A DNA stretch of 64,000 bases from an uncultured archaeon. GTDB lineage: Archaea > Thermoproteota > Nitrososphaeria > Nitrososphaerales > Gagatemarchaeaceae. Both the position numbers and the translations under genes were made by a program. Numbering within the stretch: position 1 is the stretch's first letter; each line of letters opens with the position of its first letter. The notes under the pieces were generated by a model. The model worked only from the letters and a program-made list of their open reading frames with translations, had not been told where the DNA came from and did not search any database. Positions 19,614-46,713 of this stretch are shown in pieces. Location of the stretch: positions 800,001 to 864,000 of the forward strand of contig CAWCYD010000003.1 of NCBI GenBank assembly GCA_963799775.1, read 5' to 3'.

Positions 19614-20522
19614 GTGGTCTCGAACACTTTGGACGAGGACGTTCTCATCATGGTCACGAACGACGACGGCGTGACCAGCCCCGGTATCATCGCCCTCGCC
19701 GACGCGGTCTCGGCCCTCGGCAGCGTCATGATCATAGCGCCCGACGGCGAGAAGAGCGCAGCCGGTATGAGCCTAACCTTTCACAGGCCTCTGCGCATCA
19801 CGAAGGTGCACGTGGGGAGGAGGGTCTGCTACGCGATCTCGGGAAGCCCGGCCGATTCGACCATGATAGGGATACACAACCTCCTTCCGAGGAGGCCAGA
19901 CGCCGTAGTCTCCGGGATCAACAAGGGGGAGAACCTCACCATCCAGGACATCTTCGCCTCGGGGACCGTGGCGGCGGCGCTCTCGGCGGCGCTGCTCGGG
20001 ATACCAGCCATCGCCTTCTCACTCGAGATCCCTGCTGGGAGGAACGTCATACATGGCAGGAATTAACCGGGGTTCGCCATCCCCGCGCGGATCGCCGCGG
20101 AGATGACCAGGGAGGTCTTGGAGCACGGGATGCCCAGAGGGGCGGAAATGCTGAACGTGAACTTCCCGTGGAAGACGAGCTGGGACACGAGGATCAAGAT
20201 CACGTCGCTCGAGGGGAGGAAGTGGAGGGACTCCGTCCTTGAGAGGGATGACCCGCGGGGCAGGCCCTACTACTGGCTCTGGGGCTCGAGGATGCCCCAC
20301 TTCAAGAAGAACTCCGACGCTTACGCGATCCACAAGGAAGGGGTGATCTCCGTCTCACCGCTCAACCTGGATTTCACAGCAAAGTCGACTCCGGAGATAA
20401 GGAAGTTCGAGACGAGGGTGACTTCGAGGCTGAAGGAGATGGCCGAGACCGTCGATAGCAGGCATAAAGGTTCTACTGCATCGAACGTCCGGCGTGATGC
20501 AGTTTCGAGGCATCGACTCTGA
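19614..20522 (+). CDS. surE: 5'/3'-nucleotidase SurE (frameshift near 20062; 3' end invaded by a TnpB element)
   Basis: VTNDDG, GSPADS, SGINKGEN, SGTVAAA, LNVNFP and DPRGRPYYW. Confidence 0.92.
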
Positions 20523-20620
20523 GGATTAGCGGCTCTCCTACGTATTCCGCTGTCCCCTTCATTGCTTCTCTTGCCTCGCCTTCTTTCTGTTGCGAACTGT
20601 CGAACCTCAACCGCCCTCTT
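20450..20620 (-). ncRNA. Putative omegaRNA (scaffold plus ~20 nt guide) of TnpB element A
   Basis: Nucleotide blocks conserved across three copies: GGGCGGTTGAGGTTCGAC, GGCGAGGCA, TAATCCTC.GAGTCGATGCCTCGAA, AGAACC. Confidence 0.7.
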
Positions 20621-21741
20621 CTGGAGATGTTGAGAACAGCGACTGTATCCCGTTCCCACCATCTTCTGCATGTCGGGCACCACAACTGGCGATAGTGCTC
20701 AAGATCGTCTCGGACGGCCTCTTGGAGTCTCTCCCCGCATCGAGGACAATCCATTGTAGTGCGCCTCGTTTCTCTCTTTGATAGCGTGACTACGGGAACC
20801 TCTTCCCATGCTGCCTTGTACTCTACTTGCCTCTTCACTTCGCGGAAGGGCCATGAATTCATTCTTGCTCTGAACTTCTTTCCTTGGCCGTTTCCTTTAC
20901 GATAGAGGCTGCGAATGCCACTGATTTCTTCGAAGACTATGGCTTCGTGGTTTGCCTTGGCATCGACTACGATCTCCTTCGTGACTGCATGAATGATTTG
21001 CCTTATTCTCTGAGTCTGTCTCTTGCCATATTTTGATGCAATTTGTCGTCGAATTCTCGAGTCATTCCGCTTAAATGATGCCACGATATTTCGGGTCGTC
21101 TCGGCGATCTCAACAGCTCTTGTGACGTCGAAGTAGGTTACCTTCTTACTATTTCCAGCAGTAACGTTGCGAACATTTCTGTCAATTCCCACGAAATCAG
21201 TGATGCCTGAATTTGTCTTGACCTCTTTCGAGTAGGAGATAGAAACAGACGTTAGCGTCAACGTGAAGGATCTAATCTTCACGGTTGGGTCTGATAATAT
21301 GATGTTCTGAGTATGGGGGCTCAGAGGAATATACTCAGAACGCCCTGCCGCCAGCGGAACTCTGAGCTTGCCGTCCTGAATCTTCAAGCTGTAACACGAG
21401 ATGATGAATGGCTTTGATACGTAAGGAATCTTGGTTCGCATTCCTCTCTTGATCGATTTTCGTCGAGCCGAGAGTATTCCTGAGGCTTTTGTTATCGCAG
21501 TCAGCCGATACTGCGAATAGAACATATACCTACTCAGACGAGGGTAGCAAAGGAACGACAGCCTCTTCCTGGAAGCCGCTAGACCACTCTCGGTCTCGAA
21601 CTTCAGTGCTTCCCGGATGCACTCGTTAACCATTCGGCGAAAGTCCTCGAGAAGAGCGAGCATACTCGAGGTCGGGACGTAGTTTTGCTTGACTGCCTTG
21701 AAGGCTCGCACATCATCACAGATGGTGCCACTATTTCAGCG
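20470..21741 (-). mobile_element. Transposase-less TnpB element A (Cas12f-like clade)
   Basis: Left motif ATGGG|CGCTGAAATAG 30 bp before ATG; right end ...hairpin-AGAAC(C) shared with the copies at 30 kb and 45 kb. Confidence 0.75.
20473..21711 (-). CDS. tnpB: RNA-guided endonuclease TnpB
   Basis: RuvC GIDRN / IVFEE / RDTVAVLNI intact; CPRC..CPTC zinc finger. Confidence 0.92.
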   Translation of the reverse strand: MRAFKAVKQNYVPTSSMLALLEDFRRMVNECIREALKFETESGLAASRKRLSFLCYPRLSRYMFYSQYRLTAITKASGILSARRKSIKRGMRTKIPYVSKPFIISCYSLKIQDGKLRVPLAAGRSEYIPLSPHTQNIILSDPTVKIRSFTLTLTSVSISYSKEVKTNSGITDFVGIDRNVRNVTAGNSKKVTYFDVTRAVEIAETTRNIVASFKRNDSRIRRQIASKYGKRQTQRIRQIIHAVTKEIVVDAKANHEAIVFEEISGIRSLYRKGNGQGKKFRARMNSWPFREVKRQVEYKAAWEEVPVVTLSKRETRRTTMDCPRCGERLQEAVRDDLEHYRQLWCPTCRRWWERDTVAVLNISRRGRLRFDSSQQKEGEAREAMKGTAEYVGEPLILRVDASKLHHAGRSMQ

Positions 21742-21816
21742 CCCATGAGCCGAAGCAGGGACAGACCAGAAGCATAAATAGTAATCCAGCACACGCGAAC
21801 TCGTAGACGCTTCCCA

Positions 21817-22404
21817 ATGAAGAAATCGGAAGGCGTTGTCGGAAGAGGAGACGCCGGCGCCAATCAGAAAGAACCAGCACCTTCACCTGTCGCCGAGTCG
21901 TTCGGGACAGGCTTGCCCATGGGTTCGCTCAATGGGATAGTCGTGGTGCCGCTTTCCAAGGCGGTCAGGTTGTTGCTGCCTCCTCTGTTCGTCTCCTCCC
22001 TCCCAAGGAAGGCGATAGGGTTCTCGTTTCCCAGAGGGGCGGAGGGGAAGCTCCTCGGTAGCGCGCTCCTTGCTGGGACCATCGCGCTCTCCTATCTGAT
22101 GGACAAGGCGTTTGGGATCTTCGCGGGTGTCGGCATCGTCTGGCTCATGGGAGTGACCTCCCTTGTGATCCTATACAACTCGAGCGGACAAGGCGTCGCG
22201 TTCGTGAAGCAGATGTGCTCGACCTGCAGGCTCCGCCCGATAATAGAGGAGCACGAGATGATGCACCTCAACGGCGAGCCTTCGGAGGAGGCCGTGTGGA
22301 GGGAGGCCAGGAAGAAGTACTCCTACGACAGCCTGGGGCTTGGGACTGACCCCAAGATACACACCTTCTGTCCGATCGCTAAAAGGTTGAAAGAGACCCC
22401 ATAG
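21817..22404 (+). CDS. Hypothetical membrane protein with CxxC/His/Cys cluster
   Basis: Two TM helices, then CSTCRL..EEHEMMH...HTFC. Confidence 0.6.
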   Translation: MKKSEGVVGRGDAGANQKEPAPSPVAESFGTGLPMGSLNGIVVVPLSKAVRLLLPPLFVSSLPRKAIGFSFPRGAEGKLLGSALLAGTIALSYLMDKAFGIFAGVGIVWLMGVTSLVILYNSSGQGVAFVKQMCSTCRLRPIIEEHEMMHLNGEPSEEAVWREARKKYSYDSLGLGTDPKIHTFCPIAKRLKETP

Positions 22405-22425
22405 CGCGAAGGGCGACTCTCGGCA

Positions 22426-24249
22426 ATGGTTCACAGGGTAGCTGGGCTAGACGACAATCTTTGTCACTCCGACAAGTGCGGCCTAGAGTGCATCAAGAAC
22501 TGCCCGGTGAACATCAACGGGGACGAGTGCATCATCCTCGGGGAGGAGAAGCTCGCGGTCATCTCCGAACAGCTCTGCATCGGGTGCGGCATCTGCGTCA
22601 AGGTCTGTCCTTTCGACGCGATCACTATACTCAACCTGAGCGAGGAGCTCCAGGAGGAGAAGATCCACCAGTACGGCATCAACACTTTCAGGCTCTATCG
22701 CCTCCCCACCCCCCGAAGGGGGCAGGTCGTCGGGCTCGTCGGGAGGAACGGGACAGGCAAGTCCACGGCCCTCCAGATCCTCTCTGGGCAGCTGGTCCCC
22801 AATCTCGGTGACTACGAGCACCCCGCGAGCTGTGGCCTGCTGCTAAAGTATCTGAGCGGGAAGGAGCTCAAGGAGCACTTCGAGAAGGTCGCGAGAGGAG
22901 AGGTCAAGATCTCCCTCAAGCCACAGGCCGTCTACAAGCTGCCTGAGGTCTGGAAGAAGGACGTCTCCTCGTTGCTCACGAAGATGGACGAGACGGGTGA
23001 CAAGGAGAGAGTCGTAGAGGCGCTCGGCCTCCACGAAGCCCTGGAGAAGAACGTCGGAGAATTGAGCGGAGGCGAGCTCCAGAGGGTCGCGATAGCGGTA
23101 GCGGCCTTGAAGGACGCGGACATGTATCTCTTCGACGAGCCCTCTTCCTTCAACGACGTATACCAGAGGCTCGCGGTCTCGAAGCTCATCCGCTCGATCG
23201 CCGAGAGGAACAAGTACGTGGTCCTCGTCGAGCACGACATCACCTTCCTTGACTACGCAAGCGACTACGTCCAGATACTCCACGGGGAACCCGGCGTCTA
23301 CGGGATCGTCTCCTCGCTCTACCCTTCGAGAAGCGGCATCAACGCGCTCCTGGAGGGGTTCCTGCCCAACGAGAACACCAGGTTCAGGGACAAGAGCGTA
23401 ACCTTCGATGTCACCACGAGCGTCGAGGCCCAGCAGTCGGAGGAGGTTGTCGCCAGATATGGCGAGCTGAGAAAGTCGTTCCCGGGGTTCGAACTGGACG
23501 TCAAGGCGGGAGAGATGACGGCCGGGACCATCTTCGGCGTGATAGGCGCGAACGCGCTCGGCAAGACGACCTTCCTGAAGGTGCTCGCGGGGGAGGAGAA
23601 GCCCGACTCTGGCGGGGTGAGCCTGGGCGTGAGGATCGCCTTGAAGCCGCAGTATCTCAAGGCCGACTACCCGGGGACCGTCCAGGAGTTCATCAACGAG
23701 AAGGTGGGGAAAGGTTTCGACGACACCAACCTCCAGACATACCTCGCCGGGCCCTTGAGGATAGAGAAGCTCTTCGCCCGGGAGGTCTCCGACCTCAGCG
23801 GCGGTGAGCTGCAGAAGCTAGCGATAATCTCGACCTTCGCCGCCGAGGCAGACATGTACGCGCTGGACGAGCCGTCGGCCTTCGTGGACGTGGAGGACAG
23901 GTTCGTGATAGCCAAGGCGATGGGGAGGCTGGTGAAGGCGAGGGGAAAGACCGCCGTGATCATCGACCACGACATCCAGCTCCTGGACCTGATCTCGGAC
24001 AGGATGATCGTCTTCACCGGCGACCCAGGCAGGAAGGGCTCGGCGACGTCGCCGCTGGGCAAGGAGGAGGGGATGAACACGTTCCTCAGCGAGATCGGTC
24101 TCACCTACCGCCGCGACATCAAGAGCCGCAGGCCCAGGGTGAACAAGCCCGACAGCAAGAGGGACAGAGAGCAGAAGGAGACGGGCCAATACTACTACGC
24201 CGCGAGGCAGGGGCAGCCCGAGGGGGAGGAAGAGGAGGCGGAGGCTTGA
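22426..24249 (+). CDS. ABCE1/RLI ribosome recycling ATPase
   Basis: N-terminal Fe-S motifs (C..C...C...CP, CIGCGICVKVCP), two ABC domains, RPRVNK..S..DREQK. Confidence 0.97.
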   Translation: MVHRVAGLDDNLCHSDKCGLECIKNCPVNINGDECIILGEEKLAVISEQLCIGCGICVKVCPFDAITILNLSEELQEEKIHQYGINTFRLYRLPTPRRGQVVGLVGRNGTGKSTALQILSGQLVPNLGDYEHPASCGLLLKYLSGKELKEHFEKVARGEVKISLKPQAVYKLPEVWKKDVSSLLTKMDETGDKERVVEALGLHEALEKNVGELSGGELQRVAIAVAALKDADMYLFDEPSSFNDVYQRLAVSKLIRSIAERNKYVVLVEHDITFLDYASDYVQILHGEPGVYGIVSSLYPSRSGINALLEGFLPNENTRFRDKSVTFDVTTSVEAQQSEEVVARYGELRKSFPGFELDVKAGEMTAGTIFGVIGANALGKTTFLKVLAGEEKPDSGGVSLGVRIALKPQYLKADYPGTVQEFINEKVGKGFDDTNLQTYLAGPLRIEKLFAREVSDLSGGELQKLAIISTFAAEADMYALDEPSAFVDVEDRFVIAKAMGRLVKARGKTAVIIDHDIQLLDLISDRMIVFTGDPGRKGSATSPLGKEEGMNTFLSEIGLTYRRDIKSRRPRVNKPDSKRDREQKETGQYYYAARQGQPEGEEEEAEA

Positions 24250-25052
24250 GGATGAAGCTCTCGAGACAAGACGAGCTCCCAGCCTCCATCGAGAGCGGGA
24301 TAGACGTGATCGGCGACATCGCGATCGTCAAGCTCCGGCCGGAGTCCAACGCTACGGACGCGGAGATATCTGCGGCCATCCTCAAGGAGATGAAGCACGT
24401 GAAGTGCGTCTACGGACAGGAGGGCGGCATCGAGGGGGACTTCCGCCTCAGGAAGCTCCGCCACCTCGGAGGGGAGAAGCGGACCACGACGCTGCACAAG
24501 GAGAACGGGATAAGGCTCCGACTCGACGTCGAGACTTGCTACTTCTCGCCTCGGCTGTCGACGGAGAGGCTCCGCATTGCGCAGAGCGTTACCAATGGCG
24601 AGAGAGTGCTCAACATGTTCGCCGGCGTAGGGCCGTACTCCGTGCTGATAGCAAAGAAGACCAGGGTCTGGAGCTGCGAGCTGAACTCGGCAGCTTTCCG
24701 TTACCACGTCGAGAACAACAGGCTGAACAAGGTGGAGGAACGGGTCACCATGATCGAGGGCGACGCGATGTCGCTCCCTCAGACGCTGGAAGGGGGATCT
24801 CCCTTCGACAGGATCCTGATGCCCCATCCCTCCCAGTCGAACCTCTTCCTTCCCGCTGCCCTCTCACTTGTTGCGCCGGGCGGGGTGATACACTACTACA
24901 GGCACATGACGGGAGAAGACGTGCCTGAGGCGGAGAAGAACCTCAGGGCGGAGATAGAGACCACGGCCCCGGAGGCGTCGGTCAGGTCGATGAGGAAGGT
25001 CCGTCTGATCGGGCCGCGCTACGTCGAGCTCGTCGCTGAGCTAACGGTCTAG
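24246..25052 (+). CDS. Trm5/Taw2-family tRNA methyltransferase
   Basis: DVIGDIAI, HKENG, YFSPRLSTER and NMFAGVGPY. Confidence 0.9.
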   Translation: MRMKLSRQDELPASIESGIDVIGDIAIVKLRPESNATDAEISAAILKEMKHVKCVYGQEGGIEGDFRLRKLRHLGGEKRTTTLHKENGIRLRLDVETCYFSPRLSTERLRIAQSVTNGERVLNMFAGVGPYSVLIAKKTRVWSCELNSAAFRYHVENNRLNKVEERVTMIEGDAMSLPQTLEGGSPFDRILMPHPSQSNLFLPAALSLVAPGGVIHYYRHMTGEDVPEAEKNLRAEIETTAPEASVRSMRKVRLIGPRYVELVAELTV

Positions 25053-26685: not shown

Positions 26686-26704
26686 TCTCGAAACTCACCT
26701 TCTC

Positions 26705-28783: not shown

Positions 28784-29339
28784 GGGCCGCGGCCCTGGCT
28801 AGAAGAGCAGCGACCCTGACGGGCTCCGGAACCCCTCCCTGCAAAGTGAATGCGTCAAGGACGGCCTTCGACTCCTCCTCAGTGATGCCCGCGTTCCGGA
28901 CGTAGACGATGTGGCCCGTGTTCAGCGTGACGCGCGTGCGCCCGCCGAGCCTCTGGTATCTCTCGATGCGCGACTCTGGGTCCTTGAAGTGCCGCCGTAT
29001 GGCCTGCTCGATCCCGGAGGATTCCTTGTACGTGAGGCAGACGACCGGGATGTGGGACCGCTCCGCGATCTCGTCGACGTCGACGACGTTGTATCGGCTG
29101 ATTATGCACCCGGAGAGGATGATCAGGTTGATGTCGGCGCGGCGGAGCCGCCGATACATGCGAAGCAGGGAGCTCGTCGCGTCCTCTCCTCCGACCGTCG
29201 CAGACCCGAGGACAAAGCCGTCGATGACGAGGTCGCCCCTCATCACGACCCCCGCGAGCGACGACTTCGCGGCGGAGGGACGGAAGCTCTCAGCAACCCC
29301 GAGCGCCCTGATACCCTTCTTCGCGAGATGGAGCCGCAA
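28770..29339 (-). CDS. DUF99 / endonuclease V-like protein
   Basis: LGVAESF, GVVMRGD..IDG, YNVVD and PEPVRVA. Confidence 0.85.
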   Translation of the reverse strand: MRLHLAKKGIRALGVAESFRPSAAKSSLAGVVMRGDLVIDGFVLGSATVGGEDATSSLLRMYRRLRRADINLIILSGCIISRYNVVDVDEIAERSHIPVVCLTYKESSGIEQAIRRHFKDPESRIERYQRLGGRTRVTLNTGHIVYVRNAGITEEESKAVLDAFTLQGGVPEPVRVAALLARAAALRRT

Positions 29340-29385
29340 CCTTGGTCTCTGTCCTCAGCGGATGGCTCGGTCGACGGTGCTTGAG

Positions 29386-29448
29386 CGAGGCTCAGTCAAA
29401 TGCCTTCTCTTCACAAAGTTGTCGTAACTCTGATACATCATTGCCTCG
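29386..29448 (-). ncRNA. C/D box methylation-guide sRNA, probably targeting 23S rRNA
   Basis: Terminal stem CGAGGC/GCCTCG; C box ATGATGT; C' GTGAAGA; D box CTGA; guides TCAGAGTTAC and AAGGCATTTG; TATA CTTATAAC ~25 bp upstream. Confidence 0.85.
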
Positions 29449-29490
29449 GCCCTTCGAGCGTCCCTCCGGTTATAAGGACGCGCGTGGCGA

Positions 29491-29997
29491 TCAGATGAAG
29501 AGCAGCCCTTCGTCGAAACGCGTGACGTTTGCCAGGAAGTCCTTGAGCACGAAGAGCGGCACGACGGGGACCCCAGCGACAACGCGCACGCCGTTGTCCA
29601 CCATGGTGAGGAGCATCGGTAGGAGGGCCTTGTCCGTGGCGTCGAGCCTCAGCTTGTACTGCCTGGTCCTCTCGGCCTGGGCGAGCGCGAGCTTCTCCAG
29701 CGTCGCGTAGCCCACGCCCCTCCTCCAGTGCTTGCAGTCCACCGACAGCCCCATCGTCTGCGACTCGGCCAGGAGGTCCAGTTGCCTGCGCGGCTTGCGG
29801 AGGAAGACGTTCCTCCTCACAGAGTAGCCGGCGGCGCTAATCGCTTCTGCGCAAAAGTCCTCGAACTCCGACCACGTGAGGCCTCTCGAGACCACCTCGG
29901 CGTCGCGCCCTGCCCTGATCTCCTGCAGCGCGGCCAGGACAGCGCCCGGGCCTCTCGACCTCGGCTCGTGGGAGCTTGAGAATGCCTCAGGCCTCAA
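29491..29997 (-). CDS. PD-(D/E)xK restriction-endonuclease-like (Mrr-cat/NERD-like) protein
   Basis: LTWSEFEDF, RQLDLLAE and VDCKHW. Confidence 0.8.
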   Translation of the reverse strand: MRPEAFSSSHEPRSRGPGAVLAALQEIRAGRDAEVVSRGLTWSEFEDFCAEAISAAGYSVRRNVFLRKPRRQLDLLAESQTMGLSVDCKHWRRGVGYATLEKLALAQAERTRQYKLRLDATDKALLPMLLTMVDNGVRVVAGVPVVPLFVLKDFLANVTRFDEGLLFI

Positions 29998-30016
29998 TGC
30001 AAGTCTCCGGGCTGTA

Positions 30017-30210
30017 CCGCGATTTTAACCCTAGCGGTTCTGTTAGGTTCTCTGGACAAGCATTTCCGCAAATCCATTCGTACCTAACTTCGAGGCATCG
30101 ACTCTGAGGATTACCGGCTCTTCTTGTTGAGAGCTCCATTCTTTCAGCGGGTTCCCCTTCACCGCTTCAACTGCCTCGCCTTGCGAACGGTCGAACCTCA
30201 ACCGCCCCCT
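30017..30210 (-). ncRNA. Putative omegaRNA of TnpB element B
   Basis: Same conserved scaffold blocks as element A. Confidence 0.7.
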
Positions 30211-31373
30211 ACGTGAGATGTTCATGACAGCAACCACATCCCTGTCTGTCCATCTCTCGCACTTTTGACACCATAGCTGCCTGTAGTGTTCCTCATCTTC
30301 TCTAGATGCCACTTGGAGTCTCTCCCCGCATCGTGGACAATCCATAGTCGTACCTCGCGTCTCACTCTTGGTAAGAGTGATCACTGGCACCTTACCATCC
30401 TCCCATGCAGCCTTGTATTCGACCTGCCTCTTCAACTCGCCCCATGGAGCAGAGTTCATCCTGCCTCTGTACTCCCGTCCCTGCCCATTCCCCTTGCGAT
30501 AGAGGTTCCTGATGTCTTTGATGTCCTCGAAGACGATCGCCTGACGGTTCTCACTGGCCCTGGAGACGATGTCCTTTGAGACGCGATGCAGAATTTGGTT
30601 CACCCTTTCCTTACGCCTTTTACCATACTTCTCGAAGATCTTCTTTCTGATTCTCACGTCATTCCTCTTGAAGGAGCCGACGATGCTCCTCGTGTTATGC
30701 GCTATCTCGACTGCCTTTGAGATGTCATAGTGGATGACCCGCTCTTCATCTCCGACTGTGATGTTTCTCAGGTTTCTGTCGACCCCGACGAACCCATTGA
30801 CTTCAATTTCATGCCCTTGCTTGTCAGTCTGCTTCGCCACGCACAGTGACAAAGAATCGCCTGTCAATGTGAAGGAGCGGACGGTCACCCGCGGCTTTTG
30901 CGATAATGCCTCGAGCGTGTGCGCGTTGAGAGATATCTTCTCGAATTGGCGTTCGCCGACTGGTATGAGCAGGAAGCCATCTGTCATCTTGAACCCGTAG
31001 CACGAGACGAGGACGGGTCTTGAGACGTACGGATCCTTTGTTCGAAACCCTCTCCTCATCGATTTCCGTCTGGCTGCTAGTATGCCAGCTGCCTTGGATA
31101 TCGCGCAAAGGGTGATTCCGGAGTACCCACCATGGCGGGCCCTGAGCTCTTTGTAGGCAAGAAGCGAGAGCTTCTTCATCGAGGGAGTCCTACCTTCATT
31201 GTTCTGCCGCTCGAATTCTAGTCCGATTCGGATGCAGTCGTTGGTCATCTGGCGGAAGTTCTCCATCAGAGATAGGAGGTTGGGGTTCGGCTCTACGGCT
31301 AACCTTTGCCTGATTGATTTCCTTACGACGGACCTGCGACAACGCGCCAATAATTTGGCTGACTACTTAACCG
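30037..31373 (-). mobile_element. Transposase-less TnpB element B (Cas12f-like clade)
   Basis: Left motif ATGGG|CGGTTAAGTAG; right end GTTAGGT..ACCTAAC hairpin then AGAAC(C). Confidence 0.75.
30043..31350 (-). CDS. tnpB: RNA-guided endonuclease TnpB
   Basis: RuvC GVDRN / IVFED / RDVVAVMNI; CPRC..CQKC. Confidence 0.92.
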   Translation of the reverse strand: MARCRRSVVRKSIRQRLAVEPNPNLLSLMENFRQMTNDCIRIGLEFERQNNEGRTPSMKKLSLLAYKELRARHGGYSGITLCAISKAAGILAARRKSMRRGFRTKDPYVSRPVLVSCYGFKMTDGFLLIPVGERQFEKISLNAHTLEALSQKPRVTVRSFTLTGDSLSLCVAKQTDKQGHEIEVNGFVGVDRNLRNITVGDEERVIHYDISKAVEIAHNTRSIVGSFKRNDVRIRKKIFEKYGKRRKERVNQILHRVSKDIVSRASENRQAIVFEDIKDIRNLYRKGNGQGREYRGRMNSAPWGELKRQVEYKAAWEDGKVPVITLTKSETRGTTMDCPRCGERLQVASREDEEHYRQLWCQKCERWTDRDVVAVMNISRRGRLRFDRSQGEAVEAVKGNPLKEWSSQQEEPVILRVDASKLGTNGFAEMLVQRT

Positions 31374-31458
31374 CCCATACACTTGTTCCAGGTCCATAGA
31401 ACTTGACGGAACTTTCCAAAGGCAATCCATATACGCCCGAGGGAGGATTTCAGCCCCC

Positions 31459-40257: not shown

Positions 40258-40308
40258 GCTCAGAAATCGACGACGGTGCTTTTATACCCATTATATAGTC
40301 CAGCCGCT

Positions 40309-40481: not shown

Positions 40482-40494
40482 ATCCGCCTATCAC

Positions 40495-41825
40495 ATACGA
40501 GCGAGAAAACCCACGTGCTTCAGCCGTGGGATGAAAGCGAGCGTGGGGGCTTAAATATGGTAAGACGACAGTATGATGTGCCCGTAGCTCTCCGCTTCCG
40601 ACTCTATCCGACGGGCAAGGAGGAGAGGAAGATGCTTTGCACCCTCGAAGCGACGAGACATCTCTGGAACGATGCGCTCGCGCACAGAAAGGCGAGATGG
40701 GAATCAAACAAGAGATCGACGTCATACAACATGCAGGCGGCAGTACTCACATCGGAACGCAAGGAAATCGCAGAGCTAGGTGGCCTGCACTCCCAGGTCG
40801 GTCAGGACGTCCTGAGGAGGCTCGACAAGGCCTTCAGATCGTTCTTCGCGCAGCGCGCTGGCTATCCGAGGTTCAAGAAGCGCTCGACTGCTGGCTCCTT
40901 CACGTATCCCCAGGCCTACAACCGGTCAGCGAAGCCCGATGTTCCGAGACGGAGGCTCTATCTCTCAAAGATCGGCAACATCAGGACCGTCTTTCACCGG
41001 CCGCTCCCGAAGGACGCGCTCCTGAAGACGTGCACCGTGGTGAGGGAGCCAGACGGCAAGTGGTTTGCATCGCTCGTCTTCGAGGACATCCTGCCGTTGC
41101 AGAACATCATGACGAGATTCGTCTCGCCGGTCGGCATCGACCTCGGCCTAAAGTCGCTGATAGTCACGAGCGACGGCACGGAGGTAGAGCACCCACGATT
41201 TCTCAGAAGAGCGGAGAAGAGACTCAAACACCTTCAGCGAGCATTCTCTCGCAAGAAGAAGGGCTCGAAGAACAGGTTCAAGGCCAGAAAGAGGGTCGCG
41301 GCGCAGCACGCCAAGGTCAGGAGGCAGCGTACGGACTTGAACCACAAGCTCTCGACGGCGCTCGTGAGACGGCACGACCTCCTCGCCTTCGAGGACCATT
41401 CGCATCAGGAACCTGGTGCGGAACCACAAGCTGGCAAAGTCCATCCATGACGCTGGATGGGGTCAGCTCGTGAGGCTCGCGGAGTACAAGGCGCTCTCAA
41501 AGGGGAAGCGCGTAGTCAGAGTCGATTCCGCGTACTCGACCCAGGAGTGCTTCCATTGCGGCGCGCTCAACAAGATCGATCTCGACGTACGAGAGTTCGA
41601 CTGCATCGGTTGTCGTCGCCATCTCAGACGCGACCACAACGCGTCGTGCATCGTGCTGAAGCGAGGACTCGCAATGGTAGGGCAGGGCATGCCCGAACTC
41701 AAGCCTGTGGAGATGGAACCTCTACTCGTCCAGACAACTGGGCGAGCAAGCTCTATCTGTGAAGCAGGAACTACACGCCCGCAAGGGCTGGAATCCCACG
41801 GCCAAATGCCGTGGGAGGATGTCAC
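40495..41825 (+). mobile_element. IS200/IS605 (IS1341-type, tnpB-only) element
   Basis: Preceded by TCAC; left hairpin CCCACG..CGTGGG 40510-40530; right hairpin TCCCACGGC..GCCGTGGGA 41794-41816; ends GGATGTCAC. Confidence 0.85.
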
Positions 41826-41847
41826 CTCTTGTTTACCTGAGAAGTGA
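40578..41847 (+). CDS. tnpB: TnpB, classical IS605 OrfB type (frameshift ~41400)
   Basis: FRLYPT, GYPRFKK, GIDLGL, AFED, DAGWGQL, STQECFHCG and RDHNAS. Confidence 0.92.
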
Positions 41848-42449
41848 CGGCGTGCGCTTCCTCGGCGGAGAGCAGGGCCTTTCCCCTGAGTATCTTCACG
41901 AGCTCTAGGATGTCGGTCATCGCGTGCAGCTTGACGCCCTGCTTCTTCATCGCCGAAGAGCCTCCCTCCAGCCTGTCGATCACTACAGAGGCGCTCTCGA
42001 CGTCGCACCCCTCCGCCCTTATCGCATCTATCGCGGCGAGGATGGAGCCCCCGGTGGTCACGACGTCGTCTATTACGATGGACCTTCCATCCAGGCCTCG
42101 TCACCCCTTCCACGAGCTTGCCCTTCCCGTGGTCCTTCTCGTCCTTTCGCACGTAGATCATCGGCTTCTCGAGCGTGAGCGCTATCGGAGAGGAGAGCGT
42201 CAGGCCCACGGTCGGGATGCCCGCGATCGCGTCGTAGCTCGTCTCCTTGAACTCGTGCTTCAGGAACTCGGCGTACGCGCTCGTGAGCGTCTTGTACGCG
42301 CCAGGATAGCTTGGGATCGTCCGCAGGTCGATGTAATACGAGCTTATCCTGCCGCTGGAGAGCGTGAAGGTCCCGAACTGGATGGCCTTGACCTTGACGA
42401 GGACCATGGCCAGCTCCTCCAAGAGCTCCTTTCTGCGCTTCCACGCCAT
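41822..42449 (-). CDS. pyrE: Orotate phosphoribosyltransferase (frameshift ~42085)
   Basis: FGTFTLSSG..SSYYIDLR, RK..KDHG and DDVVTTGGS (shifted frame). Confidence 0.93.
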
Positions 42450-42555
42450 GGGACGAGGTCTCCGGAGGCGATACTAAAAGTTGCTATCGGCGGGCGCAGA
42501 ATTGGGACAACCTTGATAGACGAGGGGCTGATGGGTCTCGCGACCGAAGACCTCC

Positions 42556-43656
42556 ATGGAAATCTGGGTCCCCTACGGCGACGTCGAGTCACTTGTCACC
42601 CTCATGCAGGAGAACCTCGCCGAGACTTTCGACCCAAAGCCCGAGTCCCACCTTGACGAGATAGTCGTCCCGCTCTCGGAGAAGATGAAGACCGCTGAGT
42701 GCGTGCTCATCTGCGACGACAAGCCCGCCACGCTGAAGGTGGTGAAGGCGCTGCTCGCGAAGGTCCCGAGGGACGGGAAGAGGTTCCTCGCGCCCAACCC
42801 GCGGAAGGTTGAGGCGGCGGTCCCGGAACTCAAGGATGGTGTGGAGAGGCTCCGAGCGCCCGGAGAGCCCGCGTCTGAGGACGGCGAGGGTGGGAAGCTC
42901 TCGCCTGACGTCTCCGGGACGGCAAGGAAGCTGGCGATATCTACCGGCGAGCCCGATCCGTTGCTGGGGTTCATCGATGCACCTGTCTCCCTCGCGCTCG
43001 CGTGCATAGACGGCGCGAGGAGGACCGCATACAGGAGGCGAGACGGAGACGGCCCGCAGCCTCTGCGGGAGGACTCCCCGAGCCACGCGGCTGTCCGTGA
43101 AAAGGCCGAGGCGGTCCAGGGGGCCGATTACGCCACGATAATCACCCGCGGAGGAGAGCCTTACTCCATCATCGAGGGCGACGCGCTGAAACAGGCGCGG
43201 GCCCACTACATGGTGGCGGAGGCTCCGCAGGCCAAGGGCATCATAGTCGGCGCCGGGGGAAAGGGGTACGACGACACGCTCTCACACGCGATCAGGCTCT
43301 CTCTGGACGCGTTGAAGGGCGTGAGGAAGGGAGGGGAGATCGTGATCGTGGCGGAGTGCAGAGAAGGCATAGGCTCCGAGGCGCTGCAGACGTACTTGAT
43401 GGGTAGGATGACAGAGAGCTTCCTGAAGAAGGGCGCCTACGTCGAGGGGCTAGAGGAGATCTCCTACGTCACCGAGCTCAGCGACAAGTACTCCGTCACT
43501 CTCATCTCTTCGCTGCCAGAGCTTTACGCGGGAGGGAGGCTGAAGTTCAGGACGGCCCGCGGGTCCGTCGAGGCCCTGGGCAAGGTCTTCTCCTCGATAG
43601 GCCGCGGGGCCAAGCTCAACGTCGTAACGCGCGCCTGTGAGACCGTGCTCCCCTAG
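42556..43656 (+). CDS. LarA/lactate-racemase-like domain protein (degenerate)
   Basis: EIWVPYG start, GAGGKGYD..L, VRKGGEIVIVAECREGIGS. Confidence 0.7.
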   Translation: MEIWVPYGDVESLVTLMQENLAETFDPKPESHLDEIVVPLSEKMKTAECVLICDDKPATLKVVKALLAKVPRDGKRFLAPNPRKVEAAVPELKDGVERLRAPGEPASEDGEGGKLSPDVSGTARKLAISTGEPDPLLGFIDAPVSLALACIDGARRTAYRRRDGDGPQPLREDSPSHAAVREKAEAVQGADYATIITRGGEPYSIIEGDALKQARAHYMVAEAPQAKGIIVGAGGKGYDDTLSHAIRLSLDALKGVRKGGEIVIVAECREGIGSEALQTYLMGRMTESFLKKGAYVEGLEEISYVTELSDKYSVTLISSLPELYAGGRLKFRTARGSVEALGKVFSSIGRGAKLNVVTRACETVLP

Positions 43657-44834
43657 AGGGGGAAGGTGGCGAAGCTCTGCGGCACCGGGACGCAGAGCAG
43701 GCCGATGACCACGACGAGGACGAAGGCGAGCCTCCTCGAAGCTGAGAGCCCCGTGATCGAGTCGAGCGTCTCGCCCTGGACCTGGAACGCCGCCATCAGG
43801 AAGACGAGGAGGAAGACGACCCAGTAGTTCGGGAGGTCCGTGAGCAGCAACAGGATGCCGGCGACCCAAGTCGCTGACCTCCTGCCCCTCTCCCCCATGG
43901 CGAGCCTCGCCATCCTCCCTCCGTCGAAGAGCCCGGCCGGCATGAGGTTGAAGAACGCGAGAAGGAGCCCCAGCCAGGCCGCGATCTCGATCGGCGAGAA
44001 GATCAGCGTCCCGCCTGGAGGTATCTGCGGCATCATCCCCAGGCTCTGCGCGAGCGACAGTGTCCCCTGCTGGAGGATGCTGGGGTTAGTCTGGATCGTG
44101 GAGGTCTGGTTTGCGCTTATGAGGGCGCTGTACTGGGCCTGCGTCAGGACCGCGGACGTCCCTGCCGCGAGGAAGGAGACGACCACGGCGACGACGAGCA
44201 TCGCGATGGCTCCTATGAGATAGAAGTCGAAGAGCTTGTCCTTGTTGGCGGGCGCGGTCCCCGGGAAGCTCACCGAGCCGAAGGTCGGGAGGAAGTACAT
44301 CGTGGGGAGAGGGATGAAGATGGGGAGGTTCGGTATGTAATAGGAGAAGAAAGAGAAGTGCCCCTTCTCGGATGCGAGCCTCTGGGCAAAGTATCTCACG
44401 GCGAAGACCACCGCGAGCGCGACGACGAACCCGGTCGCCATCTCCAGCGTGGAGGCCCCCGGCGCCACCTGGGGGAAGATGAGCGCCACGACGTATCCCG
44501 TGACGAGCACGGAGAGGATGGCGAGGAGGAAGAGGAAGGTTGGCGTGCTGAGCGTGATCGCCGGCGGTCGCTTCACCGGCGCTGGGTTCTTTATCACGAC
44601 CAGGGTCGCGTTCTCCCTGTCGCCGTAGAGCTGGGCGGAGTAGTCCGGCTTCCTCAGCTCCTCGAGGAGCTTCAGGAAGTTCTGGCCTGACTTTGCATCG
44701 TAGACGACCTTGTACTCCGCGGCCCCCTCCTCGGTCACGAAGTAGTCCTTGACGGAGAAGAGCGACCTCACAGCGGCGTCGACGTCCGTGTTGATCGACA
44801 AGTGCCTGCTGCGCGTCGCCCCTTGGAACCGCAT
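43653..44834 (-). CDS. M50 site-2 protease homologue lacking HExxH
   Basis: YYIP...PTFG, LFD, AAWLGL and FNLMPAGLFDGGR present; RYFAQ where HExxH is expected. Confidence 0.75.
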   Translation of the reverse strand: MRFQGATRSRHLSINTDVDAAVRSLFSVKDYFVTEEGAAEYKVVYDAKSGQNFLKLLEELRKPDYSAQLYGDRENATLVVIKNPAPVKRPPAITLSTPTFLFLLAILSVLVTGYVVALIFPQVAPGASTLEMATGFVVALAVVFAVRYFAQRLASEKGHFSFFSYYIPNLPIFIPLPTMYFLPTFGSVSFPGTAPANKDKLFDFYLIGAIAMLVVAVVVSFLAAGTSAVLTQAQYSALISANQTSTIQTNPSILQQGTLSLAQSLGMMPQIPPGGTLIFSPIEIAAWLGLLLAFFNLMPAGLFDGGRMARLAMGERGRRSATWVAGILLLLTDLPNYWVVFLLVFLMAAFQVQGETLDSITGLSASRRLAFVLVVVIGLLCVPVPQSFATFPL

Positions 44835-44908
44835 TAAAGGTTAGGGAAGTAGAAGTTCGGGAAGCGACCAACCTTATTTAGGACGGGGGCCGCGCGCGGA
44901 GAGGCGGA

Positions 44909-45415
44909 ATGCAAAAGTCGATCCTAGGGAGCACGGGGGATTATACTCTGAGATACGCCGAAGGCTCCGACGTCCCTAGCGTCATCAAGGTCAACGCAGA
45001 GACGCTACCCGAGCACTACTCGGAGTACTTCTACTACGAGGTCCTGAACGAGTTCCCTGAGACGTTCATCGTCGCGCAGCTGGGCAACGAGATAGTCAGC
45101 TACATCATGTGCAGGATAGAGTACGGGCTCTCCGTGATGAAGAGGTTCGGGCTTGCGAGGAAGGGGCACATCATCTCCATCGCCACGATGCCCCCGCACA
45201 GAGGGAAGGGCGTGGGGACGGCGCTTATCCAGAGGACGATGGAAGAGATGAAGAAAGGAGGGTGCAGGGAGGTGTTCCTGGAGGTCAGAGTCACGAACGA
45301 CGACGCCGTGAGGCTCTACGGTAAGCTGGGGTTCCAGGTGACCGGGACGATGCAGGGCTACTACAAGGACGGCGAGTCCGCCTACCTCATGGCGCAGCAG
45401 CTCGGTTCTACATAG
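44909..45415 (+). CDS. rimI: RimI/Ard1-family N-acetyltransferase
   Basis: LPEHY, GHIISIA, RGKGVG, LEVRVTN and YYKDGE.AYLM. Confidence 0.93.
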   Translation: MQKSILGSTGDYTLRYAEGSDVPSVIKVNAETLPEHYSEYFYYEVLNEFPETFIVAQLGNEIVSYIMCRIEYGLSVMKRFGLARKGHIISIATMPPHRGKGVGTALIQRTMEEMKKGGCREVFLEVRVTNDDAVRLYGKLGFQVTGTMQGYYKDGESAYLMAQQLGST

Positions 45416-45550
45416 TCTCCCTAGGGAGACGCAGCTTCGAGGCATCGACTCGGAGGATTAGCGGCTCCCCTTCGTGTTCCACGTTCCCCTTCATTGCTTC
45501 ACTTGCCTCGCCTTTCTTCCTCGAACGGTCGAACCTCAACCGCCCCCTCT
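45385..45550 (-). ncRNA. Putative omegaRNA of TnpB element C
   Basis: Same conserved scaffold blocks as elements A and B. Confidence 0.7.
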
Positions 45551-46685
45551 GGGAGATATTCATGACCGCGACCACATCACGGTCTTGCCATCTCCCGCAG
45601 ACACGACACCACAAGTGGCGATAGTGATCGCCATCGTCACGTCTTGCCGCTTGGAGTCTCTCCCCGCATCGCGGACAATCCATTGTAGTGCCGCTCGTTT
45701 CACTTCTGGAAAGAGTGAGGGTCGGAATCCCCGCCCACCCTGCCTTGTATTCAATCTGCGTTTTCAATTCTCCGAAAGGCCACGAATTCATTTCGGCCCT
45801 GTATCTTCTGCCTCGCGGGTTCCTCTTCGAGTAGAGTCCCCTGATTCCCCTAAGATCCTCGAAGACGATTGCCCCCCTTTCCTCTGTGGCTAATTCGACA
45901 ATCCTTCTTGAGATGAGGTGCAAGAACTGCTTCACCCGGTTAGCCCTGCGGCGGCCGTACTTTGAGCGAATTTGTTGTCCTATCCTGGCATCGTTTCGTC
46001 TGAAAGAGCGAACTATCGCCCGTGTGTTTTCCCCGATGTCGACGATGGGCCCCATCTCGAAGCGAAACACCTTCCTATGATTACCGACCGTCACGTTGCG
46101 AAGGTTTCGGTCGATTCCGATGCAATCGTTGACGTCTAGGGCGGGGATTTCACTGGTTTCTTTGGCAATCGTTATGCAAAGAGACTCGGGTGTCAAGGCG
46201 AACGAACGGATTTTCGTTGACGGGTCGGACAGCGCTGAAATTGTGTGGGGGCTCAAAGATATCGATTCAAATTTGTCGGAATCAACATGAAAGATGAGAG
46301 CCTGACCCTCGACCTTGAAGCCGAAGCACGAGACAAGCAGAGGTCTCTTGACATAAGGACTTGAGGTCGGGAAGCCTCTCCTGATTGACTTCTTTCGTGA
46401 GGCCAGGATTCCGGCTGCCATTGATGAAGCGCAAGAGGCGTAACTGGCATATCCACCATACCGGCTCCGAATTTGTCTGTACGAAAGAGACGAGAGTTTT
46501 TTCATCGAAGGGGTCTGATTATCAGCAGATGTCTTTTCACATTCCAACCCGATCCGAATGCAGTCATTGACCATCTGCCGAAAGTCCTCCATGAGTCGAA
46601 GGCTTTCGGCGGTCGGTAGGAACCTCTGTTTGATTCCCTTTAGAACACGGGCCACAGGATTAAAATCGGCATTGCCCTATAAGCG
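45405..46685 (-). mobile_element. Transposase-less TnpB element C (Cas12f-like clade), inserted in the rimI 3' end
   Basis: Left motif GTGGG|CGCTTATAGG 30 bp before GTG; right end GTCTCCC-TA-GGGAGAC hairpin then AGAAC(C); removal restores a rimI stop overlapping the lig start. Confidence 0.8.
45408..46655 (-). CDS. tnpB: RNA-guided endonuclease TnpB
   Basis: RuvC GIDRN / IVFED / RDVVAVMNI; CPRC..CRVC. Confidence 0.92.
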   Translation of the reverse strand: MARVLKGIKQRFLPTAESLRLMEDFRQMVNDCIRIGLECEKTSADNQTPSMKKLSSLSYRQIRSRYGGYASYASCASSMAAGILASRKKSIRRGFPTSSPYVKRPLLVSCFGFKVEGQALIFHVDSDKFESISLSPHTISALSDPSTKIRSFALTPESLCITIAKETSEIPALDVNDCIGIDRNLRNVTVGNHRKVFRFEMGPIVDIGENTRAIVRSFRRNDARIGQQIRSKYGRRRANRVKQFLHLISRRIVELATEERGAIVFEDLRGIRGLYSKRNPRGRRYRAEMNSWPFGELKTQIEYKAGWAGIPTLTLSRSETSGTTMDCPRCGERLQAARRDDGDHYRHLWCRVCGRWQDRDVVAVMNISQRGRLRFDRSRKKGEASEAMKGNVEHEGEPLILRVDASKLRLPRETM

Positions 46686-46713
46686 CCCACACGCTCCGAG
46701 AATTGACGACCTT

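What the first reader, a model, noticed from the sequence alone, without database searches (positions are those of the whole stretch)
20470..46685. Family of minimal, transposase-less Cas12f-like TnpB elements bounded by TGGG and AGAAC(C)
Seen: three complete, mutually divergent tnpB genes (elements 20470-21741, 30037-31373, 45405-46685) plus a fourth starting at 63884; the complete ones retain all RuvC D-E-D residues. Each has RTGGG followed by a TATA-like box (CGCTGAAATAG, CGGTTAAGTAG, CGCTTATAGG, TGCTTATATAG), with the start codon 30, 23, 30 and 30 bp after TGGG. Each complete copy ends in a hairpin plus AGAACC. I see no left-end subterminal hairpin, and there is little room for one (about 58 bp to lig in C, 67 bp to the divergent gene in D). 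No Y1 or serine transposase is present in the window. Inference: TGGG(Y) is the target-adjacent motif and the element is only promoter, ORF and omegaRNA, spreading by RNA-guided homing or an unknown trans mobiliser rather than by IS605 peel-and-paste. From memory a TGGG TAM was reported for an IS607-associated TnpB; this needs verifying, and these right ends do not finish in GG.
Basis: partly seen in the sequence, partly recalled or inferred. Interest (0 to 1): 0.82.

Follow-up and report, generated by a model that had tools for sequence, protein, structure and literature searches.

The report
TnpB passengers on IS6-type transposon ends
The three TnpB genes are real RNA-guided nuclease modules, but they sit inside inverted-repeat elements that duplicate about 8 bp on insertion and share their ends with IS6-type transposase elements, so TGGG is an internal promoter motif and not the target motif.

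Summary
Three divergent tnpB genes (52-56% aa identity) keep the RuvC D-E-D residues. Each has TGGG plus a TATA-like box 23-30 nt before the start codon, and each ends in a hairpin plus AGAACC. The genome assembly has no Y1 or serine transposase. A covarying omegaRNA of about 150 nt ends exactly at AGAACC.

Empty sites in sister genomes place the left end of element A 26 nt upstream of TGGG, with a 7-bp target duplication. Relatives show perfect 8-bp duplications and imperfect terminal inverted repeats (GGYTCTGTYAA...). The same 22-nt repeat bounds elements carrying a SWIM + IS240/IS6-type DDE transposase, also with 8-bp duplications. In 80 metagenome loci, 19 repeat copies lay next to such a DDE, 15 next to TnpB and none next to both.

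These are therefore non-autonomous TnpB and omegaRNA-only passengers, most likely moved in trans by an IS6-type transposase. They are not IS605 or IS607 elements. TGGG lies where an archaeal BRE would sit and also occurs at non-TnpB genes.

The motif next to the target is TR, or TTR in 14 of 17 soil-MAG insertions. It lies just 5' of the duplication, only in omegaRNA orientation. That is my predicted TAM. DDE-linked TnpBs are known, but I found no report of an IS6 partner.

The parts
20469..21771 (-). Element A (1303 bp): right terminus ...TAGAACC at 20469, left terminus TTCTGG... at 21771. It is absent from 5 sister genomes.
   Evidence: Empty sites in L026-L030. The left inverted repeat is degenerate.
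20462..20468 (-). Right-end copy of the 7-bp target duplication of A (TTTATGC on the - strand). It would be the first bases of the omegaRNA guide.
21772..21778 (-). Left-end copy of the target duplication of A. It is preceded by CTA and is the TATA box (GCATAAA, + strand) of the divergent gene at 21817.
20473..21711 (-). tnpB of A (412 aa)
20469..20616 (-). omegaRNA scaffold of A. It overlaps the 3' end of tnpB and ends at AGAACC.
   Evidence: Alignment A1, 35 pairs, covariation
21731..21745 (-). TGGG (21742-21745) plus TATA-like box CGCTGAAATAG. This is an internal promoter module 26 nt inside the left end.
30036..31413 (-). Element B. The right terminus is 30036 (AGAACC-TAAC-AGAACC). The left terminus is about 31413, inferred only from the inverted repeat GTTCCGTCAAGTTCTATGGAC versus the right end read as reverse complement, GTTCTGTTAGGTTCTCTGGAC. 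TGGG is at 31374-31377. No duplication was found, and the flanks are rearranged relative to sister genomes.
30043..31350 (-). tnpB of B (435 aa)
45404..46725 (-). Element C. The right terminus is 45404, with a clean junction AGAACC|GAGCTGCTG. The left end is at or before 46725 and is not sharply defined. About 75 bp of target, including the lig start codon and promoter, is replaced. An orthologous copy is present in G018. TGGG is at 46686-46689.
45408..46655 (-). tnpB of C (415 aa)
63819..64000 (+). Left end of a fourth element (D type). The left terminus is about 63819 (TCCCTGCC...), set by likeness to its paralogue at C3:538 kb, whose inverted repeat and 9-bp duplication are clear. TGGG is at 63850-63853 and the ATG at 63884.
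40515..41847 (+). Fifth TnpB, of a different family (HTH_OrfB_IS605 + OrfB_IS605 + TNB), frameshifted. It has the same TGGGGGCTTAAATA promoter motif at 40544.

Best explanation
A, B and C (and D) are non-autonomous transposable elements. Each consists of a left terminal inverted repeat, an archaeal promoter (TGGG in the position where a BRE would sit, plus a TATA box, probably giving a leaderless mRNA), tnpB, and an omegaRNA whose scaffold overlaps the 3' end of tnpB and ends at the right terminus ...CAGAACC. Their termini are imperfect inverted repeats (GGYTCTGTYAAsTCTyCGTCGG in well-kept copies), and insertion duplicates about 8 bp of target. The same termini and the same 8-bp duplication bound elements that encode a SWIM-zinc-finger + IS240/IS6-type DDE transposase. 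I infer that this transposase moves the TnpB elements, and short omegaRNA-only derivatives, in trans. In this genome A, B and C look like old, stranded copies: they are 52-65% identical to their paralogues, and no DDE element with the matching repeat was found here. The guide would be the duplicated 8 bp plus the right flank. An empty allele carries that same sequence preceded by TR/TTR, whereas the occupied allele has ACC there. I therefore predict that TnpB-omegaRNA cuts empty alleles next to a TTR-like TAM and favours copying of the element (homing), as shown for IS605/IS607 TnpBs. Shown here: the boundaries, duplications, inverted repeats, shared ends, RNA covariation and motif statistics. 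Inferred: trans-mobilisation, nuclease activity, the TAM and homing.
For: (1) Element A is empty in 5 sister genomes. The junctions give a 1303-bp insert flanked by TTTATGC on both sides.
(2) Elements of relatives have empty sites in this genome, with these duplications: L070 CTTCTTC 7/7, L065 GAAAAAGT 8/8, L062 5/7, and L060 and L063 degenerate.
(3) Own paralogues: 416992 TTCGTCGC 8/8, 465125 7/8, 665407 7/8, D538 GGAGGAATA 9/9, 958398 8/8.
(4) In five soil MAGs, 34 repeat pairs were fetched. 15 of 34 have perfect 8/8 duplications and 19 of 34 have at least 7/8.
(5) Left end versus right end (reverse complement): 8 of 32 cognate pairs score above the 95th percentile of non-cognate pairs.
(6) The 22-nt repeat of the DDE element L096 (2643 nt, duplication CCAACGCG 8/8, PF13610 6e-16, best NCBIfam hit IS6) has 41 matches with at most 5 mismatches in 1.0 Mb of TnpB loci, against 0.4 expected. 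The matches lie at left and right termini.
(7) Independent test: a metagenome scan with the repeat pattern gave 83 matches in 80 loci. 19 lay next to an IS6-type DDE, 15 next to TnpB, 0 next to both, 41 next to neither, and 8 at contig ends.
(8) Both long repeat-bounded elements examined (L245 3098 nt, L263 3830 nt) encode SWIM + PF13610 proteins and have 8/8 duplications.
(9) omegaRNA: 21 sequences, 35 pairs, 97% of cells paired, 13 pairs with compensatory changes. 0 of 500 shuffles reached the observed values (except the count of further pair types, 86 of 500), and slid controls paired at most 42%.
(10) TTR lies just 5' of the left-end duplication in 14 of 17 oriented insertions with at least 7/8 duplications (background 2.1%, p 3e-21). 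The mirror motif occurs in 2 of 17. omegaRNA-only elements show it in 10 of 10.
(11) In the window's genus, a hand tally gives TA 8, TG 5, CA 1 of 14.
(12) The IS6 family makes 8-bp direct repeats (PMC7986276, passages).
Against: No IS6-type DDE lies within 4 kb of any of 53 wider TnpB loci. No repeat match had both genes, so the link rests on shared ends only.

PF13610 was found in 0 of 5 soil MAGs that hold 12-52 repeat copies each. Contigs there often break at the repeat, so an autonomous copy may be unassembled, but that is an excuse, not data.

This genome's two IS6-type elements have related but different repeats (GATACTCTTGCG..., GATTCTGTTACG...).

Across 23 genus genomes, TnpB and DDE co-occur in 13, TnpB alone in 4, DDE alone in 3, and neither in 3. 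That is no clear association.

A, C and several relatives have poor or no left inverted repeat. B and C have no duplication. 15 of 34 soil-MAG pairs have 6/8 or less.

The L096 DDE scores 106 bits on NF033587, under the cut-off of 125.

A symmetric DDE transpososome is not expected to choose an orientation relative to TTR, so the origin of that bias is unexplained.

No expression or cleavage data exist.
Confidence: 0.72

Rival explanations
1. One reading: minimal elements bounded by TGGG and AGAACC, with TGGG(Y) as the TAM, spreading by RNA-guided homing alone.
For: RTGGG sits at a fixed distance from the start codon in all four window copies and in most paralogues. TGGG is a proven TAM of an IS607 TnpB.
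Against: The empty sites of A put the junction 26 nt upstream of TGGG. Inverted repeats and duplications lie 12-77 nt upstream of TGGG in B, D538 and the soil-MAG copies. Copy 958398 lacks TGGG. The motif also occurs at non-TnpB genes and in another TnpB family with different ends.
Confidence: 0.03
2. Ordinary IS1341-type (IS200/IS605) elements moved by a Y1 TnpA supplied in trans, or IS607-type elements moved by a serine recombinase.
For: The TnpB proteins hit TIGR01766 and weakly IS200_TnpB / IS607_TnpB. Solo tnpB genes with very divergent copies are typical of archaeal IS1341-type elements (PMC3119063, passages).
Against: No PF01797 or PF00239 match in the genome. Both families lack terminal inverted repeats and target duplications, while these elements have both.
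Confidence: 0.03
3. The inverted-repeat and duplication architecture is real, but the mobiliser is another enzyme not yet identified (a different DDE family or a plasmid- or virus-borne enzyme). On this reading the IS6-type elements merely share or have captured similar ends.
For: 0 of 5 soil MAGs rich in these elements has a PF13610 hit. DDE and TnpB are never in one element. 41 of 83 metagenome repeat matches have neither gene nearby.
Against: Three complete DDE elements (L096, L245, L263) have these exact ends as their own termini, with 8/8 duplications and nothing TnpB-like inside. 19 of 83 repeat matches flank such a DDE. An 8-bp duplication is the IS6 hallmark.
Confidence: 0.1
4. In this genome A, B and C are no longer mobile selfish elements but retained (exapted) genes: for example RNA-guided nucleases or regulators serving the host, or promoter donors.
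For: Copies are only 52-65% identical yet keep intact ORFs, catalytic residues and omegaRNA structure. C is orthologous in G018 at 84% aa identity. Its left end now supplies the only plausible promoter and start region of the DNA ligase gene. No matching DDE was found in this genome.
Against: A is an insertion specific to this lineage. Relatives carry insertions that are empty here. The guides are simply the flanking DNA, as in mobile copies. This reading is compatible with the main explanation for the origin of the elements.
Confidence: 0.12

Closest known systems
DDE-transposase-associated TnpB branches (Altae-Tran et al. 2023, PMC10691335; passages read)
   Same: TnpB sits inside elements with inverted terminal repeats. 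The tnpB 3' end lies within 250 bp of an end. Solo TnpBs surrounded by the same ends as transposase-bearing elements were taken as trans-mobilised.
   Different: The DDE partners named in what I could read are IS630 (that paper) and ISL2, IS630 and IS1031 (review PMC13565253). IS6/IS240 is not named. Here TnpB and DDE were never seen in one element. The figures and supplements of the PNAS paper were not visible, so an IS6-type branch may be listed there.
IS6 family insertion sequences (IS26, IS240; review PMC7986276, passages)
   Same: 8-bp target duplication, short terminal inverted repeats, and a DDE_Tnp_IS240 / NF033587 transposase in the partner elements. MITEs are known in the family.
   Different: Typical members are about 0.8 kb, and only one passenger-carrying member is listed in the review. 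The partners here are 1.9-3.8 kb, have a SWIM zinc finger and carry cargo (a PIN-domain gene). The TnpB elements carry no transposase at all. The likeness of the repeat to the canonical IS6 repeat start is from my recall only.
IS200/IS605 IS1341-group and IS607 TnpB elements (ISDra2, CboIStron)
   Same: A TnpB with an omegaRNA overlapping its 3' end and ending at the right terminus. The guide is the flanking DNA. The right-end terminal bases differ from the TAM, which allows self/non-self discrimination. omegaRNA-only derivatives exist (PATE-like).
   Different: Those families have no inverted repeats and no duplications, and their TAM abuts the left end. Here an 8-bp duplication lies between the TAM-like motif and the left end, and the mobiliser is a DDE enzyme.
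Fanzor in eukaryotic DDE transposons
   Same: An RNA-guided TnpB-type nuclease riding in TIR/TSD transposons (review PMC13565253).
   Different: This case is prokaryotic, and the element is non-autonomous. In Fanzor elements the fixed duplication (for example TA) is read as part of the TAM. Here the duplication varies in sequence and would be part of the guide.

Membership tests
TnpB / OMEGA RNA-guided nuclease | RuvC-like D-E-D triad and zinc finger (TNB domain) | tested here: met
   PF07282 hits. D, E, RD and CxxC..CxxC are invariant in 29 sequences. NF040570 scores 81-97 bits against a cut-off of 100.
TnpB / OMEGA RNA-guided nuclease | Structured omegaRNA at or overlapping the 3' end of the gene, ending at the element terminus | tested here: met
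   35 pairs, 13 with compensatory changes, 97% paired, controls passed. No Rfam family matches.
TnpB / OMEGA RNA-guided nuclease | RNA-guided, TAM-dependent DNA cleavage | not testable with these tools
   Only an orientation-specific TR/TTR motif next to the would-be target is seen.
IS200/IS605 (IS1341 group) | No terminal inverted repeats and no target duplication | tested here: not met
   Inverted repeats and 7-9 bp duplications are present.
IS200/IS605 (IS1341 group) | Y1 HUH TnpA partner available | tested here: not met
   No PF01797 match in the assembly, which is 81.7% complete.
IS607 | Serine recombinase partner; ends in GG; TAM (TGGG in CboIStron) abutting the left end | tested here: not met
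   No PF00239 match. The right end ends in CC. TGGG is 26 nt inside element A.
IS6 family (as non-autonomous derivative) | 8-bp target site duplication | tested here: met
   15 of 34 perfect 8/8 in the soil MAGs. 8/8 in 416992, 958398, L065, L082 and L107. 7/7 in A and L070.
IS6 family (as non-autonomous derivative) | Terminal inverted repeats shared with elements encoding an IS6-type DDE transposase | tested here: met
   L096, L245 and L263. 41 hits against 0.4 expected. 19 of 83 repeat matches lie next to a DDE. The G000 DDE passes NF033587 (145 bits against 125); the L096 DDE does not (106 bits).
IS6 family (as non-autonomous derivative) | Own transposase gene | tested here: not met
   None inside A, B or C, and none within 4 kb of 53 loci. 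Hence 'non-autonomous'.
IS6 family (as non-autonomous derivative) | Replicative cointegrate mechanism | not testable with these tools
   -
DDE-associated TnpB branches of Altae-Tran 2023 | Phylogenetic placement in one of branches DDE-1 to DDE-6 | not tested
   The tree and supplements are not available here.

The most novel reading that the evidence does not exclude
TnpB-omegaRNA and an IS6-type, probably replicative, DDE transposase form a two-part system carried on separate elements that share ends. The transposase pastes TnpB elements and omegaRNA-only mini-elements so that the 8-bp duplication becomes the guide seed directly 3' of a TTR TAM. The strict orientation bias (14 of 17, and 10 of 10 for mini-elements) would mean one of two things. 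Either the TnpB ribonucleoprotein takes part in target choice, or insertions are rapidly driven to fixation by cutting empty chromosome copies in a polyploid archaeon. The second would be a gene drive for a transposon that never excises.
Probability: 0.3. Interest if true: 0.8.

Novelty: new variant of a known kind. Interest (0 to 1): 0.62.

Why it matters
Current explanations of why TnpB is kept in transposons rest on scarless excision by Y1 or serine transposases, followed by re-cutting of the donor joint. An abundant archaeal TnpB lineage (Nitrososphaeria-type and soil 'Bathyarchaeota' MAGs) rides on IS6-type ends, which are thought to transpose without excision. It has also spawned omegaRNA-only mini-elements. 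This lineage would test whether homing works without excision. It also gives a concrete prediction (TAM TTR, with the guide starting in the target duplication) and candidate enzyme/end pairs for assays. For annotation, left ends of such solo TnpB elements should not be set at the promoter motif.

Tried and rejected
1. A gapped global aligner to place insert junctions misplaced several. I read the junctions by eye instead.

2. B: no empty site could be rebuilt, because its two flanks map to opposite strands about 7 kb apart in G016. No duplication was found.

3. C: no duplication and no left inverted repeat. The left junction is a replacement of about 75 bp.

4. The automatic duplication search with at most 1 mismatch in 220 nt had a high background (control 4 of 21) and tested only 21 elements. 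I used only its exact or inverted-repeat-adjacent hits.

5. The L096 repeat has only 5 weak hits in the own genome (about 2 expected), none at A, B or C. The window copies have diverged ends.

6. The DDE loci L098 and L103 have one good repeat each, but the second end was not resolved.

7. The resident IS6 element at C3:418 kb was considered as the direct mobiliser of sub-family 2. Its repeat differs, so this was left open.

8. General-promoter test. In 197 TATA-like sites upstream of ORFs, 7 have TGGG at -7. tRNA promoters use A-rich upstream boxes (aragorn found 18 tRNAs). So TGGG is not the common BRE, but it is not TnpB-specific either.

9. Rfam found no omegaRNA family.

10. The look-up of sequencing runs listed no RNA holder.

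12. No structure prediction, complex prediction or large protein search was run, because the family assignment was clear without them.

13. The literature search for an IS6-TnpB link listed no paper holding both terms in the sense meant. Supplements were closed, so the SI of PMC10691335 could not be checked.

Full report
WHAT IS THERE. The window (G000:C3:800001-864000, about 60% G+C) holds three intact tnpB genes on the minus strand: 20473-21711, 30043-31350 and 45408-46655. A fourth starts at 63884. All three hit PF07282 and score best on NCBIfam guided_TnpB. They share only 52-56% identity. In an alignment of 29 family members the RuvC D, E and D residues and the four zinc-finger cysteines are invariant. 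The hairpin + AGAACC at the 3' end is also there.

The genome has 24 TNB-domain matches falling into several families. It has no Y1 or serine-recombinase match (assembly 81.7% complete by markers).

THE RIGHT END AND THE RNA. I aligned the last 175 nt of 21 elements (A, B, C and 18 from sister genomes). The DNA there is far more conserved than the 52-60% protein identity would predict. RNAalifold gives 35 pairs in 7 helices. 97% of cells are paired and 13 pairs carry compensatory changes (for example UA/CG 11:10 and UA/GC 12:9). 0 of 500 shuffles reached the observed values, except for the count of further pair types (86 of 500). Sliding the partners by 1-3 columns drops pairing to 28-42%. The structure ends a few bases before the invariant (T/C)AGAACC, and similarity between copies stops exactly after it. 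This is an omegaRNA scaffold overlapping the tnpB 3' end. Rfam has no match.

THE LEFT END IS NOT AT TGGG. Five sister genomes have the empty site of element A. On the element's strand the empty site reads ...CTATTTATGC|CTGCTAC.... The occupied site reads ...CTA-TTTATGC-[TTCTGGTCTGTCCCTGCTTCGGCTCA-TGGG-CGCTGAAATAG...tnpB...TAGAACC]-TTTATGC-CTGCTA. The insert is 1303 bp (20469-21771). It begins 26 nt upstream of TGGG and is flanked by a 7-bp direct repeat.

Element C has a clean right junction, and an orthologous copy sits at the same site in G018. Seven other sister genomes are empty there. On the left, about 75 bp of target, including the start codon and promoter of the DNA ligase gene, has been replaced. 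Element B lies at a synteny break, so only its right junction is defined.

TARGET DUPLICATIONS AND INVERTED REPEATS. Elements of sister genomes that are empty in this genome show duplications. L070 has CTTCTTC 7/7, L065 has GAAAAAGT 8/8, L062 has 5/7, and L060 and L063 are degenerate. L056, L066, L073 and L081 have none that is clear. The own paralogues show 8/8 (416992, 958398), 7/8 (465125, 665407) and 9/9 (D538).

Many copies carry at the left end an inverted copy of the right terminus. In L059 the pair is GGTTCTGTCAACTCTCCGTCGG / GGTTCTGTCAGGTCTTCGTCGG. L067, L077 (20/21), L066 (14/14), B, 1746653, 416992 and D538 show the same. In a cognate versus non-cognate test, 8 of 32 exceed the 95th percentile. 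A, C and others have decayed left repeats.

Five soil MAGs holding relatives have 12-52 copies of the repeat each, while the reversed-pattern control gives 0-1. I fetched 34 inverted pairs: 15 have perfect 8/8 duplications and 19 have at least 7/8. About half of the pairs are 150-630-nt mini-elements that keep only the left end and the omegaRNA region.

THE PARTNER. This genome has two IS6-type DDE genes (PF13610; one passes NCBIfam IS6 at 145 bits against a cut-off of 125). Homologues occur in 16 of 23 genus genomes. Their elements have their own inverted repeats and 8-9-bp duplications.

One of them, L096 (2643 nt, duplication CCAACGCG), ends in GGTTCTGTCAAGTCTCCGTCGG. That is the TnpB-element repeat. 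It contains nothing TnpB-like. This 22-mer has 41 matches with at most 5 mismatches in 1.0 Mb of TnpB loci, against 0.4 expected, and the matches sit at left and right termini.

As an independent test I scanned the metagenome collection with the repeat pattern. Of 83 matches in the 80 loci returned, 19 have an IS6-type DDE gene just inside, 15 have a TnpB, none has both, 41 have neither, and 8 are too near a contig end to tell. The two long elements bounded by two exact repeats (L245 and L263) both encode SWIM + PF13610 proteins of 373 and 398 aa. Both have perfect 8-bp duplications.

The IS6 family is defined by 8-bp direct repeats and short inverted repeats (PMC7986276, passages).

Against the partner model, DDE and TnpB are never in one element. 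0 of 5 soil MAGs has a PF13610 hit. The genus shows no clear co-occurrence: both genes in 13 genomes, TnpB only in 4, DDE only in 3, neither in 3.

WHAT TGGG IS. TGGG lies directly 5' of the TATA box, inside the left end, where an archaeal BRE would sit (recalled knowledge of archaeal promoters). The same TGGG(C/T)G(C/G/A)TTAAATA occurs upstream of non-TnpB genes, for example window 51455, C3:972369, 763802, 952896 and 1774919. It also occurs in the unrelated IS605-OrfB-type TnpB family, whose similarity likewise runs at least 30 nt further upstream. It is rare among 197 generic TATA-like sites (7 of 197). tRNA promoters use A-rich boxes. So it is a promoter flavour favoured by these elements. 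It is neither a boundary nor a TAM.

THE TARGET-ADJACENT MOTIF. I oriented 32 soil-MAG elements by their omegaRNA. In the 17 with at least 7/8 duplications, the three bases 5' of the left-end duplication are TTR in 14 (background 2.1%, p 3e-21). Position -2 is T in 16 of 17 and position -1 is a purine in 17 of 17. The mirror motif after the right-end duplication occurs in 2 of 17. The mini-elements show TTR in 10 of 10. All 17 duplications differ in sequence, so these are separate insertions.

In the window's genus, my hand tally gives TA 8, TG 5 and CA 1 of 14. The motif is present in the empty alleles.

In an empty allele the sequence TTR + [duplicated 8-mer + right flank] is intact. In the occupied allele the same target is preceded by ACC at the right end. 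At the left end it is interrupted after 8 nt. This is the self/non-self logic shown for IS607 (TGGG against TCGG). I therefore predict a TTR/TR TAM, with a guide that begins in the duplication. Why a DDE insertion should be oriented relative to TTR is unexplained. It could be a target preference of the transposase, help from TnpB, or fast selection by homing.

COMPARISON AND NOVELTY. TnpBs linked to DDE transposases, with inverted repeats and with solo copies sharing those ends, were reported by Altae-Tran et al. 2023 (PMC10691335, passages). The partner families named in the texts I could read are IS630, ISL2 and IS1031 (PMC13565253). IS6 is not named, and my searches listed no IS6-TnpB report. 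Figures and supplements were not visible. The IS6 review lists one passenger-carrying member and two MITEs. I rate this as a new variant of a known kind.

The window's own copies are old. No matching DDE was found in this genome, paralogues are 52-65% identical, and C is orthologous in a sister species and now carries the ligase promoter region.

LIMITS. Everything about mobility, expression, cleavage and the TAM is inferred from sequence. No RNA run was listed. The lineage labels come from the record titles.

Noticed in passing
window 40515-41847 (+): A fifth TnpB of another family (HTH_OrfB_IS605 + OrfB_IS605, then a TNB domain in a second frame), apparently frameshifted. Its promoter carries the same TGGGGGCTTAAATA motif at 40544. 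Intact paralogues lie elsewhere in the genome, along with mini-copies at C3:356731 and C3:444759 that keep only the promoter and the C-terminal/omegaRNA part.
   Followed up: partly
window 63819-64000 and G000 C3:537.6, 645.3-646.6, 2023.4 kb: All four D-type copies (83-91% aa identity, different sites) have the tnpB reading frame split at the same place: N-terminal ORFs of 203-226 aa and C-terminal open frames of 213-248 aa. One copy differs from the others by one extra base there. This could be a shared frameshift in copies that still transposed, or a programmed frameshift.
   Followed up: partly
window 46686-46730: The left end of element C replaces the original promoter and first ~7 codons of the DNA ligase gene seen in 7 sister genomes. 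Ligase must now start near TTG 46714, about 36 nt from the palindromic TATA (46678-46683) shared with tnpB. The same arrangement holds in G018.
   Followed up: partly
window 21772-21830: Element A inserted into the TATA box (GCATAAATAG) of the divergent gene starting at 21817. The duplication regenerates the box on the gene's side.
   Followed up: no
window 29326-31455: Element B sits at a synteny break: its two flanks map to opposite strands about 7 kb apart in G016. Next to its right end is an Mrr_cat restriction-endonuclease-like ORF (29491-29997) that most sister genomes lack at this position.
   Followed up: partly
G000 C3:416839-420070: An IS6-type element (22-bp repeats, 301-aa DDE) abuts the left terminus of a TnpB element. 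The same 8-mer (GCGACGAA on the + strand) occurs three times: at the TnpB right end, at the junction, and beyond the IS. So two insertions used the same 8 bp.
   Followed up: partly
G000 C3:688300, C3:1156986, C3:1017583: Short remnants or mini-elements that keep a left end with promoter and the omegaRNA region but no tnpB.
   Followed up: partly
window as a whole: Five of the genome's 24 TNB-domain matches lie in or at the edge of this 64-kb window, where about 0.6 would be expected if they were spread evenly.
   Followed up: no
L158 (G039:C31:1179-3453), L263:3083-3589: Elements bounded by the same repeat and an 8-bp duplication carry other cargo. L158 has an ORF with a Fic/Doc-like motif (by eye) plus a 100-aa SWIM-finger remnant and no DDE. 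L263 has a PIN-domain ORF beside the transposase.
   Followed up: partly
L096:720-840 and 3240-3362: The DDE element has a second, inner inverted-repeat pair (CTGTAAACTTTCGACGGAT) about 45 nt inside each terminus. It may be a second transposase-binding site.
   Followed up: no
G000 C3:1511454-1511536: The same intergenic region is occupied by family members in opposite orientations in two sister genomes (L060 in G017, L066 in G005) and is empty here.
   Followed up: no
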